Shown here in pieces: positions 46,301 through 49,300 of a stretch of DNA of 64,000 bases. Each line of letters starts with the position of its first letter. Position 1 is the stretch's first letter. The position numbers are program-made. The DNA is from an uncultured delta proteobacterium (GTDB lineage: Bacteria > Desulfobacterota > Syntrophia > Syntrophales > UBA2185): NCBI GenBank assembly GCA_963729715.1, contig CAVSPA010000005.1, positions 320,001-384,000 of the forward strand, given 5' to 3'.

Positions 46301-49300
46301 GCATGAAGGCAACCATAGACGAGAGCCGGACATGGATGAGAAATGAGATTGCAAGTTCGGAGGGACTGGATTTTTTCAACGATGAAGCGCGGTTTGTTGA
46401 TGACTATACCCTGAATGTTGGCAGGGAAACTGTGAGAGGCCGGAAGATATTCGTAGCCACTGGCGCTCGGCCCCTCATACCGCCCATCAACGGTGTTAAT
46501 AAGATCAATTATCTAACCAATGAAAACCTGCTCAATCTCCGGGAAAGGCCGGAAAGCATCATTATCATCGGTGGTGGCTATATCGGGGTCGAATATGCGC
46601 ACTTCTTTGCGGCCATGGGAACCAAGGTAACCATAGTCCAGAGACAAAGCAGGCTCCTCGCCAACGAGGAACCGGAGATAGCAGACCATCTTAAAGAGGT
46701 ACTCTCGAAGCGCATGGACATACTGACCAACTGGGAGACTGTGGAAGTCTGGGAGAAGAAGGGCGTTTATACTGTAATGCTAAAGAATCTTGATACGGGT
46801 TATGAGAAGGCAGTCACCGGTACCAAGATACTCGTCGCTGCAGGGCGCATATCCAATGCAGACCTCCTGGATGTCCATAAGACAGGAGTGACTACGAACC
46901 AGACTAACTACATAGACGTTGACAACACACTGCAGACCAGCAAGGCAAACATCTGGGCATTAGGCGACGCTATCGGACGCCAGATGTTCACACACGCAGG
47001 CGAAATGATGCAGCGGGTGGCCTGGCGCAATGCCACAAGCCGCAAGAAAGTATCTTTCGATTTTAGTCTCGTTCCACACGCCGTCTTTACGCGTCCACAG
47101 ATCGCCTCGCTCGGCCTCACTGAAGAACAGGCAGCGAAGAGCCACGAGATACTTGTAGGCCGGGCAAATTATTCCGACGTGGTGATGGGAGACGCCATGA
47201 TGGAAAGCGAAAGCTTCGCCAAAGCAATTGTGGAAAAGAGAACGGAGAAGATTCTCGGTTTCCATATCATCGGGCCAGATGCAGCCATCCTCATCCAGGA
47301 GGTGGTGAATGCTGTTGCACGCGGTGGAGATGTGAAATCAATAACGGATAATATGCATATCTTTCCAGCGCTTTCTGAAATCATTCCCGAGACATTGAAC
47401 AACCTGGAATAACAATACTTGAGGAGCCCTTTTATGGAGCATAGTAAACGTTTCGCTACCGGCTGCATTTTGAGTCTGATCTTCCTGCTCGTTGCTTCGC
47501 AGCCCCTTCTTGCCGCCGAAAAAATAGTCAGAATGGTAGTCCTCGGATGCGAGTGACAGGACACTGCGAGCAGGGTACGTGATGCCCTGAAGAAAATCCC
47601 GGGTGTTCTTAAGTACAATGCGAATCCATTCACTCACGAAGTTACCGTAAGATTCGACGACACAAAAACGAGTATTGATAAGATTGTGGCGGGACTTGCC
47701 AAGGAGGACTTCCCGGTCACAGGGGAACCGAAGATAATTCACTAAGCTTGATGCTATGCGGAGTGCTCTGTCTTGGCATGTTCACAATAAAAATCGTAAC
47801 GATGTATTTTTAATTGGGTTTTGTTCGTGTGGGCGCAGCGGCACCTTAGTTCTGGTAATCCCTCAATGGAGTCGTGAGATTCTTCCACATGGGGAATGTG
47901 AAAATAGAATTACAAGACAAGGAGTATAAGATGGATAATAGACGATACCTGTGGATTTGTTTCTTTGTCGGCATGTCTGTCCTTTTCATATCTGCCTACT
48001 CTTTCGCCGCTGGCATAGAGGCCTCGAAGCTGATAGGAAAGGAAACATGGAATTTCAACCTCGCCTCCACTGATGAACGGCTAATTAACTATGGTGATGA
48101 GTATTATGGAAAGTTCTACCTTATTATGACTTTTTTCCCGGCGGCATTCACACCCGTCTGAACGGGCGAGATGCAGGGGCACCAGAAGATTCTTTCTGTC
48201 TATGCCTCTCTAAACGCCCAGGTCGTGGGCGTAAGCCGGGATGACGTGATAACCCTCAAATATTGGGCACAGAAATATAAACTTACCTTTCCCCTGCTTT
48301 CGAACATCTCCGGATATCTGGGAGATCAATACGGTGTAACCGGCGCCGACAAGTTCCTCTTTAACAGGCGCACTGTAATCGTAGATAAGAAGGCTATCAT
48401 CCGGTATGCGAAGGACGGTTCACCAAACTATGAAGAAATTCTTGCCGTCCTCAAGAAGCTTAACCATGAAGAGGCAAAAAAATGATATTCTTGCTGCGGC
48501 GTCATTTCAACAGCATTGCCGCCCGCTGGCAAGGTCCGAAAAAAGGGAGCTGTCAGTATCCTTTGCGGAACCGGCCGTGCTTATCAAAAAATGATTTCAC
48601 GCTGTGCTTGCAAAATTCTTCATGTTCCGGAGAATTTACCTGGATCGGGAAGTGGGAAATGGTATGCATTTCGCGTCAGGTTGATATGTTTTAGATAAAC
48701 TTCTTTGAAATATCAAACTCAAGGCTGAATTCCTTATATTATTTAAATTATTCATGAATTCCTTTGCCTAAAAATCATGCAAAGAGCTTAAAATCATCAA
48801 TAATTGATGGTTTTTATGATTCATTAACATAGTCATCAACAACCTTATCAACAAGTATGTTTATCTCTGATGCGGATGCTCTCCGAAAGCGCGTCGTTGC
48901 TTGTTTCCAGCAATGGCCTCTCCTGGAACGACCGCCTATAGAGGAAATCCACGCCATATATCTGGCTGCAGAGAATTCACGCCACTTTCAGAGAGGCGTT
49001 GCGGTTAAGGCAGGTTCCGCAAGGCTCCGCAGCATGCATCCCCGAAGATCCTTATTGGTTGTGGCTTTCGTGCGTCTCCGGTTGGAAATCCTACGAAGGA
49101 ACGAATGAAACATCGAGGCTATAGCAATTCATAAGTGAGCATTCTATGCAGAAAGTGAAGATAATCGGAGAGCATTAATTGTGTATGGGAGGTCTTTGGG
49201 GATGAACCATCCAGGATTGGGGAAGCTCTCCATAATTGCCGCGCACGATCACTCTTTCGCTTTGCTGTGAAATATCAACTCTTCGCCTATCCAATACCCG

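What a model noticed while it worked through the whole genome (the two positions that open the first line are those of the whole stretch)
47434..48485. Secreted MerP-like HMA-domain selenoproteins (C-x-U / C-x-x-U), three copies, two beside secreted peroxiredoxin-like sel [...]
Three ~100-aa genes contain an in-frame TGA: C5:367434-367745 and C6:159183-159494, which the gene caller cut at the TGA, and C18:18990-19271 (minus strand), found by search_genomes. They encode signal-peptide-bearing heavy-metal-associated (HMA/MerP-like) domains in which the second metal-binding Cys of the GMxCxxC loop is the TGA. I read them as periplasmic selenocysteine metallochaperones or metal traps. Two sit directly upstream of a secreted AhpC/TSA protein that also carries an in-frame TGA (T-P-V-U), and the third sits beside a secreted rhodanese with U. 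New would be a Cys/Sec HMA family outside the catalogued UxxU type, and its coupling to a periplasmic Sec-peroxiredoxin.
Evidence so far: The two read-through proteins tested (C5, C6) hit Pfam HMA (E 1e-9 and 7e-9) and NCBIfam MerP TIGR02052 (43 bits, below its 92.55 cut-off). They score only 19-21 bits on NF041115, the UxxU metal-binding (seleno)protein (cut-off 95). Of 60 other Syntrophales genomes, 35 have a match at E<=1e-5. Of the 42 listed matches, 40 contain exactly one TGA inside the open frame and 2 contain none. The 60 nt after the TGA fold to -17.5 and -17.8 kcal/mol. The coding score after the TGA is among the highest of the read-through candidates. The Prx-like neighbours with a TGA are at C5:367931-368485 and C18:18150-18801. 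The HMA+Prx pair is kept in the 2 same-genus genomes fetched but not in 3 more distant l [...]
(Added by a program. Inside this text positions count along the whole contig: contig position 320,001 is position 1 of the stretch shown here. "Call 12" and the like, gene names such as g00115 and contig names such as C1 are that model's own, and its searches are not shown. The text may have been shortened before it was handed on; [...] marks where a part breaks off. The agent that wrote the report below was given it as the finding of a first reader that could run no searches.)

Follow-up and report, generated by a model that had tools for sequence, protein, structure and literature searches.

The report
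Exported MerP-fold selenoprotein beside selenoperoxiredoxin
A small exported protein with the fold of a mercury- or copper-binding protein carries a cysteine and a selenocysteine in its active loop, sits next to an exported selenium-containing peroxide-removing enzyme, and belongs to a widespread family in these anaerobes that selenoprotein catalogues do not list.

Summary
Window 47434-47745 encodes a 103-aa exported HMA/MerP-fold protein with one in-frame TGA (U41). Window 47931-48485 encodes an exported AhpC/TSA peroxiredoxin with TGA at the peroxidatic position (TPVU).

Sec decoding is well supported. The genome has tRNA-Sec, SelA and SelB. In 121 genomes of the order, 76 of 81 matches keep exactly one TGA. 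A 7-8 bp hairpin 14-17 nt after the UGA is kept with compensatory changes and is missing in the four TGA-free homologues folded. Cys forms (CxC, CxxC) exist.

Gap-free alignment to MerP and CopA puts Sec41 at the first canonical Cys, Cys39 at the Met of GMTCxxC, and Thr44 at the second Cys. The site is therefore non-canonical.

No mer or cop genes lie nearby. The partners are exported single-chalcogen redox proteins: a 1-Sec peroxiredoxin in three genomic contexts, a CxU rhodanese, and a fused CxxS thioredoxin-like domain.

I favour a thiol/selenol relay that recycles the peroxiredoxin (about 0.45) over a metal chaperone or trap (about 0.35). Neither has been tested.

The family is absent from the 2026 catalogue of 119 selenoprotein families. 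The scan had already noted the C18 paralogue of this genome.

The parts
43291..45690 (+). cydA and cydB, cytochrome bd oxidase subunits I and II. They lie upstream in the conserved string cydAB-PNDR-HMA-Prx.
   Evidence: Pfam Cyt_bd_oxida_I 524 bits and Cyt_bd_oxida_II 261 bits. The same order is seen in two same-genus records, L052 and L053.
46051..47412 (+). Cytoplasmic pyridine-nucleotide disulfide oxidoreductase (CVNVGC), 453 aa. It ends 21 nt before the HMA gene.
   Evidence: Pyr_redox_2 183 bits plus the dimerisation domain. NF004947 scores 542 bits (cut-off 592) and MerA TIGR02053 scores 345 bits (cut-off 454). It lies directly upstream of the HMA gene in 5 of 5 genomes of the genus.
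47434..47745 (+). Gene of the exported HMA/MerP-fold selenoprotein, 103 aa with Cys39-Glu40-Sec41.
   Evidence: AF2 model with pLDDT 87.4 and beta-alpha-beta-beta-alpha-beta topology. The top Foldseek hit is MerP 1osd_A, E 1.9e-6, TM 0.91 on the target.
47434..47514 (+). Predicted Sec-type signal peptide (residues 1-27, ...QPLLAA|EK).
   Evidence: Inferred from the sequence: basic N-terminus, hydrophobic core, LAA. It is modelled as a lone helix 2-27. The MerP model's match reaches back to residue 15 of the protein, inside this leader. No signal-peptide predictor was available.
47548..47556 (+). Codons for Cys39, Glu40 and Sec41 (TGA at 47554-47556), the active loop between strand 1 and helix 1.
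47571..47589 (+). SECIS-like hairpin, CAGGGUA-CGUGA-UGCCCUG, starting 17 nt after the U of UGA.
   Evidence: It is conserved in 25 TGA-bearing relatives: 87.5% of cells are paired against 30-47.5% when the partner is slid, 6 of 8 pairs have changes on both sides, and 0 of 500 shuffles reach the covariation score.
47931..48485 (+). Gene of the exported 1-Sec peroxiredoxin, 184 aa with Sec77 in FTPVU. It has no other Cys after the signal peptide and ends on an ordinary TGA stop.
   Evidence: The closest solved chains are Bcp-4 3hjp and the M. tuberculosis putative peroxiredoxin Rv2238c. Sec77 is invariant as TGA in the 7 of 8 aligned relatives whose stretch includes the codon; for own_C18 the TGA is shown.
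48159..48161 (+). TGA codon for Sec77 at the peroxidatic position.
48176..48209 (+). Extended imperfect hairpin after the Prx UGA, a candidate SECIS.
   Evidence: The single sequence folds to -23.8 kcal/mol, z -2.2. RNAalifold on 8 sequences gives 12 pairs, 2 with compensatory changes. This is modest support.

Best explanation
Shown or strongly supported: the gene is a real selenoprotein gene. It encodes a small exported protein with the MerP/CopZ (HMA) fold. Its only two chalcogen residues, Cys39 and Sec41, both sit in the loop before helix 1. Sec41 takes the place of the first canonical metal Cys, Cys39 takes the place of the Met of GMTCxxC, and the canonical helix Cys is Thr.

Inferred (about 0.45): the Cys-x-Sec pair works as a thiol/selenol redox relay in the periplasm rather than as a classical metal site. 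The neighbouring exported peroxiredoxin has Sec as its peroxidatic residue and no resolving Cys. After reacting with peroxide, its selenenic acid would be attacked by the HMA protein's Sec or Cys. The mixed Se-S or Se-Se bond would then be resolved by the second residue, leaving an intramolecular selenenylsulfide in the HMA loop. An unidentified envelope reductant would reduce that bond. The paralogues would serve a CxU rhodanese and, in another family of the order, a fused CxxS thioredoxin-like domain in the same way. The string cydAB-PNDR-HMA-Prx would then be an oxygen and peroxide defence unit of a strict anaerobe.
For: Sec decoding: the genome has tRNA-Sec, SelB at 388 bits and SelA at 607 bits. 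TGA is kept in 76 of 81 matches in 121 genomes of the order. The hairpin covaries, including at third-codon positions (C-G in 12 sequences, G-C in 7, at columns 18/36). The four TGA-free homologues folded do not form this hairpin at the aligned place, and the two Cys-free ones fold poorly (-6.6 and -5.3 kcal/mol). Cys forms CxC and CxxC exist. The one genome with a CxxC orthologue in the same synteny has no SelA found at 98% completeness, while 4 of the 4 other genomes checked have it. The Prx gene itself ends on TGA, so TGA is not a general sense codon here.

Relay reading: the mature Prx has no Cys besides U77, and among its closest solved relatives is the M. tuberculosis peroxiredoxin Rv2238c (that this is the 1-Cys enzyme AhpE is recalled). 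HMA-Prx adjacency occurs in three different genomic contexts: cydAB-PNDR in the genus, near a KatG-like ORF (named from its first residues only) on C18, and an unrelated context in MAG L055. It involves two HMA clades. In the order, the Prx subtype is found only in the two genera that carry the window-type HMA clade. Other partners are NF041203 CxU rhodanese plus a MauE/DoxX membrane protein and a fused Thioredoxin_9 domain that aligns WCxDS to WCGHC of thioredoxins. No metal-homeostasis gene was seen in the Pfam scan of 119 ORFs from 30 loci of +-1.5 kb or in the 15 ORFs of L055 and L056; the other 12 loci of +-4 kb were only probed with 7 proteins of this genome. MerT was not found in the genome. 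The canonical Cys-in-helix is lost.
Against: I know of no HMA-fold protein that acts as a redox carrier; this rests on recall and I ran no search on it. The fold and the best structural matches (MerP, CopA, Atx1, CopZ) all point to soft-metal binding.

The most widespread clade (CxxU) sits in a housekeeping synteny (ManC-like, Maf, YggS-like) with no redox neighbour, in 12 of 30 loci.

A clade without either Cys or Sec exists in genomes that have SelA, so the fold has some function without the pair.

Two of the four fused proteins have Ser in place of the thioredoxin-like Cys.

One same-genus genome (L014) and the one uncut g29 locus (L043) lack the adjacency.

No reductant for the HMA protein has been identified. 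Sec insertion, export and any activity are untested.
Confidence: 0.45

Rival explanations
1. Periplasmic soft-metal chaperone or trap. The Cys39/Sec41 pair chelates a thiophilic metal (Cu(I), Hg(II), Cd, Ag). Sec would give an affinity high enough to compete with sulfide. The protein might also shield the neighbouring exported selenoenzymes, whose selenols are very sensitive to metals.
For: HMA fold with the pair in the canonical loop region. MerP is the best sequence-model and structure match. Known HMA-type selenoproteins are annotated as metal-binding: NF041115, NF045683 and the cation ATPase with UxxC. The partners Prx and rhodanese are themselves exported selenoproteins.
Against: The register differs from every canonical site: there is no helix Cys, and Cys replaces Met. 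No transporter, reductase, regulator or other metal gene was seen next to any member in the ORFs scanned in 30 loci of +-1.5 kb or in the 2 loci of +-4 kb annotated, L055 and L056; 12 more loci of +-4 kb were only probed with 7 own proteins. MerT was not found in the genome. The adjacent PNDR is below the MerA cut-off, and I saw no Cys near its C-terminal end in the translation. All scores are below the MerP, CopZ and UxxU cut-offs.
Confidence: 0.35
2. Another role for the fold, with the chalcogen pair secondary. Examples are carrying sulfur or selenium (persulfide or perselenide) between exported proteins, or serving as a structural or adaptor subunit of envelope complexes.
For: A Cys-free, Sec-free clade persists (99/96 support) in genomes with SelA. 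A rhodanese is the partner at C6 and in L054. The core clade sits in a housekeeping synteny.
Against: The first Cys is nearly invariant, and the costly Sec is kept in 76 of 81 matches, which argues that the pair is the functional centre in most members.
Confidence: 0.15
3. Not a selenoprotein: the TGA is a real stop, and the frames are short peptides or decayed genes.
For: Gene callers cut the genes at the TGA. NCBI records annotate relatives as 45-aa hypothetical proteins. There is no expression or protein evidence; no RNA run was listed.
Against: Protein conservation continues after the TGA in 76 matches. The fold needs both halves. The SECIS hairpin covaries. Cys orthologues exist at or next to the same loop position. 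The Sec machinery is present.
Confidence: 0.03

Closest known systems
MerP, periplasmic Hg(II)-binding protein (TIGR02052; PDB 1osd, 1afi)
   Same: Exported single HMA domain of about 75 residues. It is the best structural match (1osd_A, TM 0.91 on the target, 31% identity). It shares the VPG...FDDTKTS...GYP framework without any indel.
   Different: The score is 42.8 bits against a cut-off of 92.55. There is no GMTCxxC motif: Cys replaces Met, Sec replaces the first Cys and Thr replaces the second Cys. There is no mer operon, and MerT was not found in the genome.
NF041115 UxxU metal-binding (seleno)protein ('putative mercuric reductase' of the O. algarvensis symbiont papers)
   Same: It is a small selenoprotein that NCBIfam names metal-binding and that matches the same HMA region.
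   Different: The score is 21.5 bits against a cut-off of 95, and there is one Sec rather than two. That the UxxU pair lies at the canonical positions is my assumption, not checked; here the pair is Cys-x-Sec or Cys-x-x-Sec, shifted towards the N-terminus. This protein is exported.
Other HMA-linked selenoproteins: cation-transporting ATPase (TIGR01525, UxxC) and the NF045683 MerT/CopZ fusion-like selenoprotein
   Same: Both are catalogued selenoproteins of heavy-metal transport with CopZ- or ATPase-type metal-binding parts. A gammaproteobacterial MAG gene with GMT*EGC was seen in passing.
   Different: Those are membrane transporters or fusions. Relatives of the window protein score 15-25 bits against a cut-off of 375 on NF045683.
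Sec-peroxiredoxin (PF00578, TxxU; listed as experimentally verified in the 2026 review) and the M. tuberculosis peroxiredoxin Rv2238c (AhpE by recall)
   Same: The neighbour has PxxxTxxU with Sec at the peroxidatic site and no resolving Cys.
   Different: It scores below every NCBIfam Prx cut-off, including PrxU NF040737 (40.4 bits against 270). It carries a signal peptide. Its pairing with an HMA selenoprotein does not appear in the two reviews and three genome surveys that I searched for terms.
NF041203 rhodanese_LYCAU (seleno)protein
   Same: It is the partner of the C6 paralogue, it is exported, and it has the same Cys-x-Sec spacing.
   Different: It has a different fold and is a known family (169 bits against a cut-off of 115).

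Membership tests
Bacterial selenoprotein (general criteria) | In-frame UGA with conserved coding sequence on both sides | tested here: met
   76 of 81 matches in 121 genomes keep one TGA inside the open frame. The alignment covers both halves.
Bacterial selenoprotein (general criteria) | SECIS stem-loop shortly after the UGA | tested here: met
   A 7-8 bp stem lies 14-17 nt after the UGA. 87.5% of cells are paired against 30-47.5% for slid controls, and 6 of 8 pairs are compensatory. The four TGA-free homologues folded do not form this hairpin at the aligned place. No bacterial SECIS model is in Rfam, and there was no Rfam hit.
Bacterial selenoprotein (general criteria) | Cys-containing homologues at the Sec position | tested here: met
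   CxC forms: L015, P0014, P0044, P0061, P0080, P0101. CxxC forms: L030, P0029, P0079, P0135.
Bacterial selenoprotein (general criteria) | tRNA-Sec, SelA and SelB in the genome | tested here: met
   SelD was not searched.
Bacterial selenoprotein (general criteria) | Selenium shown in the protein | not testable with these tools
   This needs 75Se labelling or mass spectrometry.
Pfam HMA (PF00403) | Score above the gathering threshold and the beta-alpha-beta-beta-alpha-beta fold | tested here: met
   39 bits against 24.8. AF2 topology. 34 PDB HMA chains at E<=1e-3.
MerP (TIGR02052) | Score at or above 92.55 bits | tested here: not met
   42.8 bits. The C6 copy also scores 42.8 bits.
MerP (TIGR02052) | GMTCxxC with Cys at both canonical positions | tested here: not met
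   In the gap-free register, C39 = Met, U41 = first Cys and T44 = second Cys.
MerP (TIGR02052) | mer operon context (MerT, MerA, MerR) | tested here: not met
   MerT (PF02411) was not found in the genome. The adjacent PNDR scores 345 bits against the MerA cut-off of 454. MerR was not searched.
NF041115 UxxU metal-binding selenoprotein | Score at or above 95 bits, and two Sec in UxxU | tested here: not met
   21.5 bits; one Sec; Cys-x-Sec.
NF045683 MerT/CopZ fusion-like selenoprotein | Score at or above 375 bits, and a MerT membrane part | tested here: not met
   It is not among the window protein's hits at E<=0.01. Relatives score 15-25 bits. The protein is a single soluble domain.
Peroxiredoxin, Sec form (PF00578, TxxU), for the neighbour | AhpC/TSA domain with PxxxTxxU at the peroxidatic site | tested here: met
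   82.5 bits against 26. The motif is FFPAAFTPVU. The TGA is kept in the 7 of 8 aligned relatives whose stretch includes the codon; own_C18 is shown.
PrxU (NF040737), for the neighbour | Score at or above 270 bits | tested here: not met
   40.4 bits.
Redox carrier for the Prx (working model, not a family) | Physical contact and electron transfer between the HMA protein and the Prx | not tested
   No test of contact between the two proteins could be made with the tools that accept these sequences.

The most novel reading that the evidence does not exclude
The HMA (MerP/CopZ) fold has been turned into a periplasmic thiol/selenol redox carrier. A Cys-x-Sec loop recycles an exported one-selenocysteine peroxiredoxin, and in paralogues it serves a CxU rhodanese or a CxxS thioredoxin-like domain. 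This would give strict anaerobes an all-selenium peroxide defence outside the cytoplasm. It would be the first redox-carrier role for this fold and a new kind of Prx reductant.
Probability: 0.35. Interest if true: 0.8.

Novelty: new variant of a known kind. Interest (0 to 1): 0.58.

Why it matters
The finding adds a well-supported selenoprotein family to the prokaryotic selenoproteome. The family occurs in 66 of the 120 other genomes sampled from the order. Public records annotate it as truncated 45-aa hypothetical proteins, or read its TGA as Trp.

The family shows that the classic metal-binding loop of the HMA fold can be rebuilt. The chalcogen pair has moved two residues upstream, and the Sec position differs by one residue between clades.

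Its repeated pairing with exported enzymes that have one reactive Sec or Cys gives a directly testable idea of how a periplasmic 1-Sec peroxiredoxin is recycled in oxygen-sensitive syntrophs. If the protein instead binds metal, it would be a Sec-based periplasmic metal site with a new geometry.

Tried and rejected
- Complex prediction of HMA with Prx: no test of binding could be made, so binding stays open.
- ESM Atlas look-up for the HMA protein: not available for this protein.
- The search for related loci with alignment A2 failed because it had no conserved stretch. The single-protein query worked.
- Rfam at E<=1 over 45600-49000 gave no match.
- The promoter and terminator scan gave counts no higher than shuffles, so operon limits are not settled.
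- The single-sequence hairpin energy after the HMA UGA is not significant on its own (z -1.1). Only the comparative analysis carries weight.
- The profile search of 1.84 billion representatives was diluted because the profile kept the fused thioredoxin-like columns. Most of the 7920 hits are thioredoxin-like or generic HMA proteins. I used only 29 fetched sequences, not the counts.
- MerA reading of the upstream PNDR: rejected. It is below the cut-off, has no N-terminal HMA domain, and I saw no Cys near its C-terminal end in the translation.
- General TGA-as-sense code: rejected. The Prx gene ends on TGA and the Sec machinery is present.
- The GOS 2008 'MerP' selenoprotein is a 33-aa read fragment with TUC and bears no visible likeness to this family.
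Full report
**What is there.**

Window 47434-47745 (+) is an open frame of 103 codons with a single TGA at 47554-47556. Read through, it gives a protein with a basic and hydrophobic N-terminal leader ending LLAA|EK, followed by a 76-residue domain.

- It passes Pfam HMA (39 bits, cut-off 24.8).
- It stays far below every curated NCBIfam model: MerP 42.8 against 92.55, both CopZ models about 26 against 91-95, and the UxxU selenoprotein NF041115 21.5 against 95.

A gap of 185 nt follows. Then 47931-48485 (+) encodes a 184-residue AhpC/TSA protein (82.5 bits) with a signal peptide and a TGA at 48159-48161 in FFPAAFTPVU, the peroxidatic position. After the signal peptide it has no other Cys.

Upstream lie a cytoplasmic pyridine-nucleotide disulfide oxidoreductase (46051-47412, ending 21 nt before the HMA gene) and cydAB (43291-45690).

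The own genome holds two more HMA copies with a TGA: C6 (65% identity, GCE*) and C18 (29% identity, DCKT*). It also holds a second TGA-bearing Prx next to the C18 copy. The C6 copy is followed by an exported rhodanese with FYCKU, which passes NF041203 (169 bits against 115), and then by a MauE/DoxX membrane protein.

**Is the TGA read as selenocysteine?**

The genome has tRNA-Sec, SelB (388 bits) and SelA (607 bits). TGA is not a general sense codon, since the Prx gene itself stops on TGA.

In a sample of 121 genomes of the order, 67 have a match at E<=1e-5. Of the 81 listed matches:
- 76 carry exactly one TGA inside the open frame;
- 4 carry no stop;
- 1 carries a TAG, which on inspection is the true stop of a Cys form.

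The single-sequence fold after the UGA is unremarkable (-17.5 kcal/mol, z -1.1), but the comparative picture is clear. In 25 TGA-bearing members a stem of 7-8 pairs starts 14-17 nt after the UGA (window 47571-47589, CAGGGUA-CGUGA-UGCCCUG).
- 87.5% of cells are paired, against 30-47.5% when the 3' partner is slid by 1-3 columns.
- 6 of 8 pairs show changes on both sides.
- 0 of 500 shuffles reach the covariation score.
- The outermost pair switches between C-G (12 sequences) and G-C (7 sequences) at third-codon positions.

The four homologues without TGA that I folded do not form this hairpin at the aligned place. The two Cys-free ones fold poorly (-6.6 and -5.3 kcal/mol, z +1.4 and +1.7); the two Cys forms fold into other structures. 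A caveat applies: the stem lies in codons for a conserved R-[IV]-x-x-[IA]-L stretch that these four conserve less well.

Cys forms exist for both spacings, CxC and CxxC. The one sampled genome whose orthologue in the conserved synteny is CxxC (G035, 98% complete) has no SelA found, while the 4 other genomes checked all have it.

I put the probability that this is a real selenoprotein at about 0.9. Insertion itself has not been shown.

For the Prx, eight sequences share an extended imperfect hairpin with two compensatory pairs. Sec-Prx with TxxU is in any case a known family, listed as experimentally verified (review PMC13188914, section 7 read).

**Anatomy of the site.**

The AlphaFold model, built from an alignment of 28 family members, has pLDDT 87.4. 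Its topology is beta1 (29-36), loop (37-41, LGCEU), alpha1 (42-53), beta2, beta3, alpha2, beta4. Foldseek ranks MerP first (1osd_A, E 1.9e-6, TM 0.91 on the target, 31% identity; then 1afi), followed by CopA, Atx1 and CopZ domains.

HMMER alignments to CopA (1p6t) and MerP (1osd), and a MAFFT alignment with MerP-like genes from other phyla, are free of gaps from the VPG before the loop to the G-V after helix 1. They place Cys39 on the Met of GMTCxxC, Sec41 on the first Cys, and Thr44 on the second Cys.

In the other main clade the motif is Cys-x-x-Sec in a loop of the same length, so the Sec lies one residue later and the helix Cys is again missing. The pair has thus moved wholly into the loop, and the Sec position differs by one residue between clades.

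A maximum-likelihood tree of 49 domains was built from 52 sequences. Three rows were dropped because the motif could not be placed: L020, P0015 and P0142.
- CxxU and CxxC forms make one clade (97/95).
- The Cys-free forms make another (99/96).
- The window and C6 copies fall in a CxU/CxC clade (96/96).
- The C18 copy falls inside the CxxU clade.
The alignment has few columns and the deep forks are open.

**Distribution and annotation.**

The family is found in 66 of the 120 other genomes of the order, and in 32 of 58 genera counting this genome's own. In a phylum-wide sample of 301 genomes it was found in 13. Five of these lie outside the order, and 4 of those 5 carry a TGA. Close relatives in named records are Syntrophales, Smithella and 'delta proteobacterium' MAGs.

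Public protein sets hold the family in three forms:
- as TGA read as Trp (GCEW and similar);
- as 45-aa 'hypothetical protein' fragments in NCBI Smithellaceae records;
- in JGI as 'copper chaperone CopZ' or 'exonuclease VII small subunit'.

**Neighbourhoods.**

In 30 loci of +-1.5 kb, 119 ORFs were scanned against Pfam.
- All 5 genomes of the genus have the PNDR directly upstream.
- 4 of these 5 have the Prx downstream (one cut by a contig end); L014 does not.
- 12 loci of the CxxU, CxxC and Cys-free forms sit between or beside a ManC-like nucleotidyltransferase, Maf and a YggS-like gene. This is a housekeeping synteny that says nothing about function.
- In four genomes of another family of the order, the CxU domain is fused to a C-terminal Thioredoxin_9 domain. 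Its FFGTW[C/S]xD[S/A] motif aligns to WCGHC of thioredoxins, so it is a CxxS, CxxA or SxxS form.

Two same-genus records show the whole string cydA-cydB-PNDR-HMA-Prx. A further Syntrophales MAG (L055) has an HMA-Prx pair (68% and 72% identity) in an unrelated context: histidine kinase, MaoC and others.

The Prx subtype occurs in 7 of 121 genomes, and only in the own genus and genus g29. These are the genera that carry the window-type HMA clade. In g29, the one locus with an intact upstream flank has no HMA gene next to it, and three other loci are cut by contig ends.

No mer, cop or other metal-homeostasis gene was seen in the ORFs scanned in the 30 loci or in L055 and L056. The other 12 loci of +-4 kb were only probed with 7 proteins of this genome. 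MerT was not found in the genome.

**How it most likely works.**

Shown: the fold, the exported architecture (the leader is inferred from sequence only), a Cys/Sec pair in a non-canonical loop position, and the recurring partners.

Inferred: the function. I weigh two readings.

(a) Redox relay, about 0.45. Every recurring partner is an exported protein with one reactive chalcogen that forms a covalent adduct and needs a two-residue resolver.
- The Prx has a peroxidatic Sec and no resolving Cys. Among its closest solved relatives is M. tuberculosis Rv2238c, which I recall as the 1-Cys enzyme AhpE.
- The rhodanese is a CxU form.
- The fused thioredoxin-like domain is a CxxS form.
The HMA-Prx pair travels as a unit into three contexts and involves two HMA clades. 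The contexts speak of oxygen stress: cydAB here, and an ORF near the C18 pair whose first residues look like catalase-peroxidase KatG (recognised by eye, not scanned). The canonical metal geometry is dismantled.

(b) Metal chaperone or trap, about 0.35. Every characterised HMA domain with a Cys pair in this loop binds soft metals (my knowledge). The known HMA-type selenoproteins are named metal-binding. Sec would outcompete sulfide for thiophilic metals and could protect the neighbouring exported selenoenzymes.

Against (a): there is no precedent for this fold as a redox carrier (by recall), the core clade has no redox neighbour, a Cys-free clade exists, and no reductant is identified.

Against (b): no metal gene context was seen at any locus examined, and the register is altered.

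A third possibility is a sulfur or selenium carrier or an adaptor role, about 0.15. I could not test contact between the two proteins with the tools that accept these sequences.

**Comparison with what is known.**

The 2026 inventory of 119 prokaryotic selenoprotein families has no PF00403 single-Sec exported family (PMC13188914; Table 1 read in full in section 7, parts 1-2; term search for HMA, PF00403, CopZ and MerP). It lists:
- NF041115 (UxxU, 'putative mercuric reductase');
- MbdU (two CU motifs);
- MerT (C/SxxU);
- the cation ATPase (UxxC);
- Prx (TxxU);
- rhodanese form 3 (CxU).

The 2022 review (PMC9312934, term search only) and the 2006 Syntrophus aciditrophicus selenoproteome (PMC1794560, Table 3 passage) have no such family either. 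The GOS paper's Table 2 lists 'MerP' with two reads and no Cys homologues. Its supplement shows a 33-aa fragment with TUC that bears no visible likeness to this family (PMC2398784, passages and supplement file 3).

Full-text searches for the following found no description of this family:
- selenoprotein + heavy metal-associated + selenocysteine + bacteria;
- MerP + selenoprotein;
- mercuric transport protein + selenoprotein + SECIS;
- CopZ + selenocysteine + selenoprotein;
- HMA domain + selenocysteine.
Subscription-only papers are outside that library.

I confirmed that copy and placed it in the CxxU clade.

**Verdict.**

This is a real and uncatalogued subfamily of a known kind, an HMA-type selenoprotein. 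It has a rebuilt active loop and order-wide distribution. The link to a periplasmic Sec-peroxiredoxin is genuine but local. The metal-binding interpretation is plausible but unsupported by context, and I slightly prefer a thiol/selenol relay. I score interest as moderate to high for selenoproteome and envelope-redox specialists.

Noticed in passing
L018 1063-1803 (-), L020 1066-about 1800 (-), L023 1069-1806 (-), L028 1066-1800 (-): In four genomes of another family of the order, the Cys-x-Sec HMA domain is fused to a C-terminal Thioredoxin_9 domain in an exported protein of about 245 aa. The thioredoxin motif is WCPDS or WCKDA in two of them and WSDDS or WSPDS in the other two. Stand-alone exported WCxDS proteins of 160-195 aa are abundant in the representative library.
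   Followed up: partly
L064 2436-2636 (+), Gammaproteobacteria MAG: An HMA domain with GMT*EGC. Here the TGA sits at the canonical first Cys and the canonical second Cys is kept (UxxC). This is a different HMA selenoprotein type from the one studied.
   Followed up: no
L051 (own genome C6:156000-163000) 3694-4119 (+), 4525-5028 (-), 5010-5951 (-): The C6 paralogue is followed by an exported NF041203 rhodanese selenoprotein (FYCKU). A MauE/DoxX membrane protein and a cNMP-binding/rhodanese protein lie on the opposite strand. The HMA gene, the rhodanese and the MauE gene recur together in a same-genus MAG (L054).
   Followed up: partly
Own genome C18:14049-16244 (+): A 731-aa ORF whose N-terminus looks like catalase-peroxidase KatG lies about 2 kb from the C18 Prx-HMA pair. 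Recognised by eye only, not scanned.
   Followed up: no
Database proteins P0003-P0006, P0013, P0015, P0022 and others: Public gene calls of this family often read the TGA as Trp (GCEW, CASW). Other calls split the gene into 45-aa fragments named 'hypothetical protein' or 'exonuclease VII small subunit'.
   Followed up: yes
G035 (L030 1492-1785, -): The only sampled genome with a CxxC orthologue in the ManC/Maf/YggS synteny has no SelA found at 98% completeness. Two other genomes of the same genus have TGA forms.
   Followed up: partly
L044, L045, L047 (genus g29): Three contigs end within about 20-220 nt upstream of the Sec-Prx gene. This may reflect a repeated or duplicated sequence there, and it hides what precedes the Prx.
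   Followed up: no
L032 208-534 (-), L033 1471-1797 (+), P0012, P0063, P0106, P0125: A well-supported clade of the family has neither Cys nor Sec in the loop (PAI[TV]S[LI]) and a short C-terminal extension (…DISTFLT). It occurs in genomes that do have SelA.
   Followed up: partly
L015 1874-2467 (-) and 2678-3097 (-): The CxC (Cys) form in G091 lies beside DUF2703 and DGC-domain genes and a sigma-54 activator.
   Followed up: no
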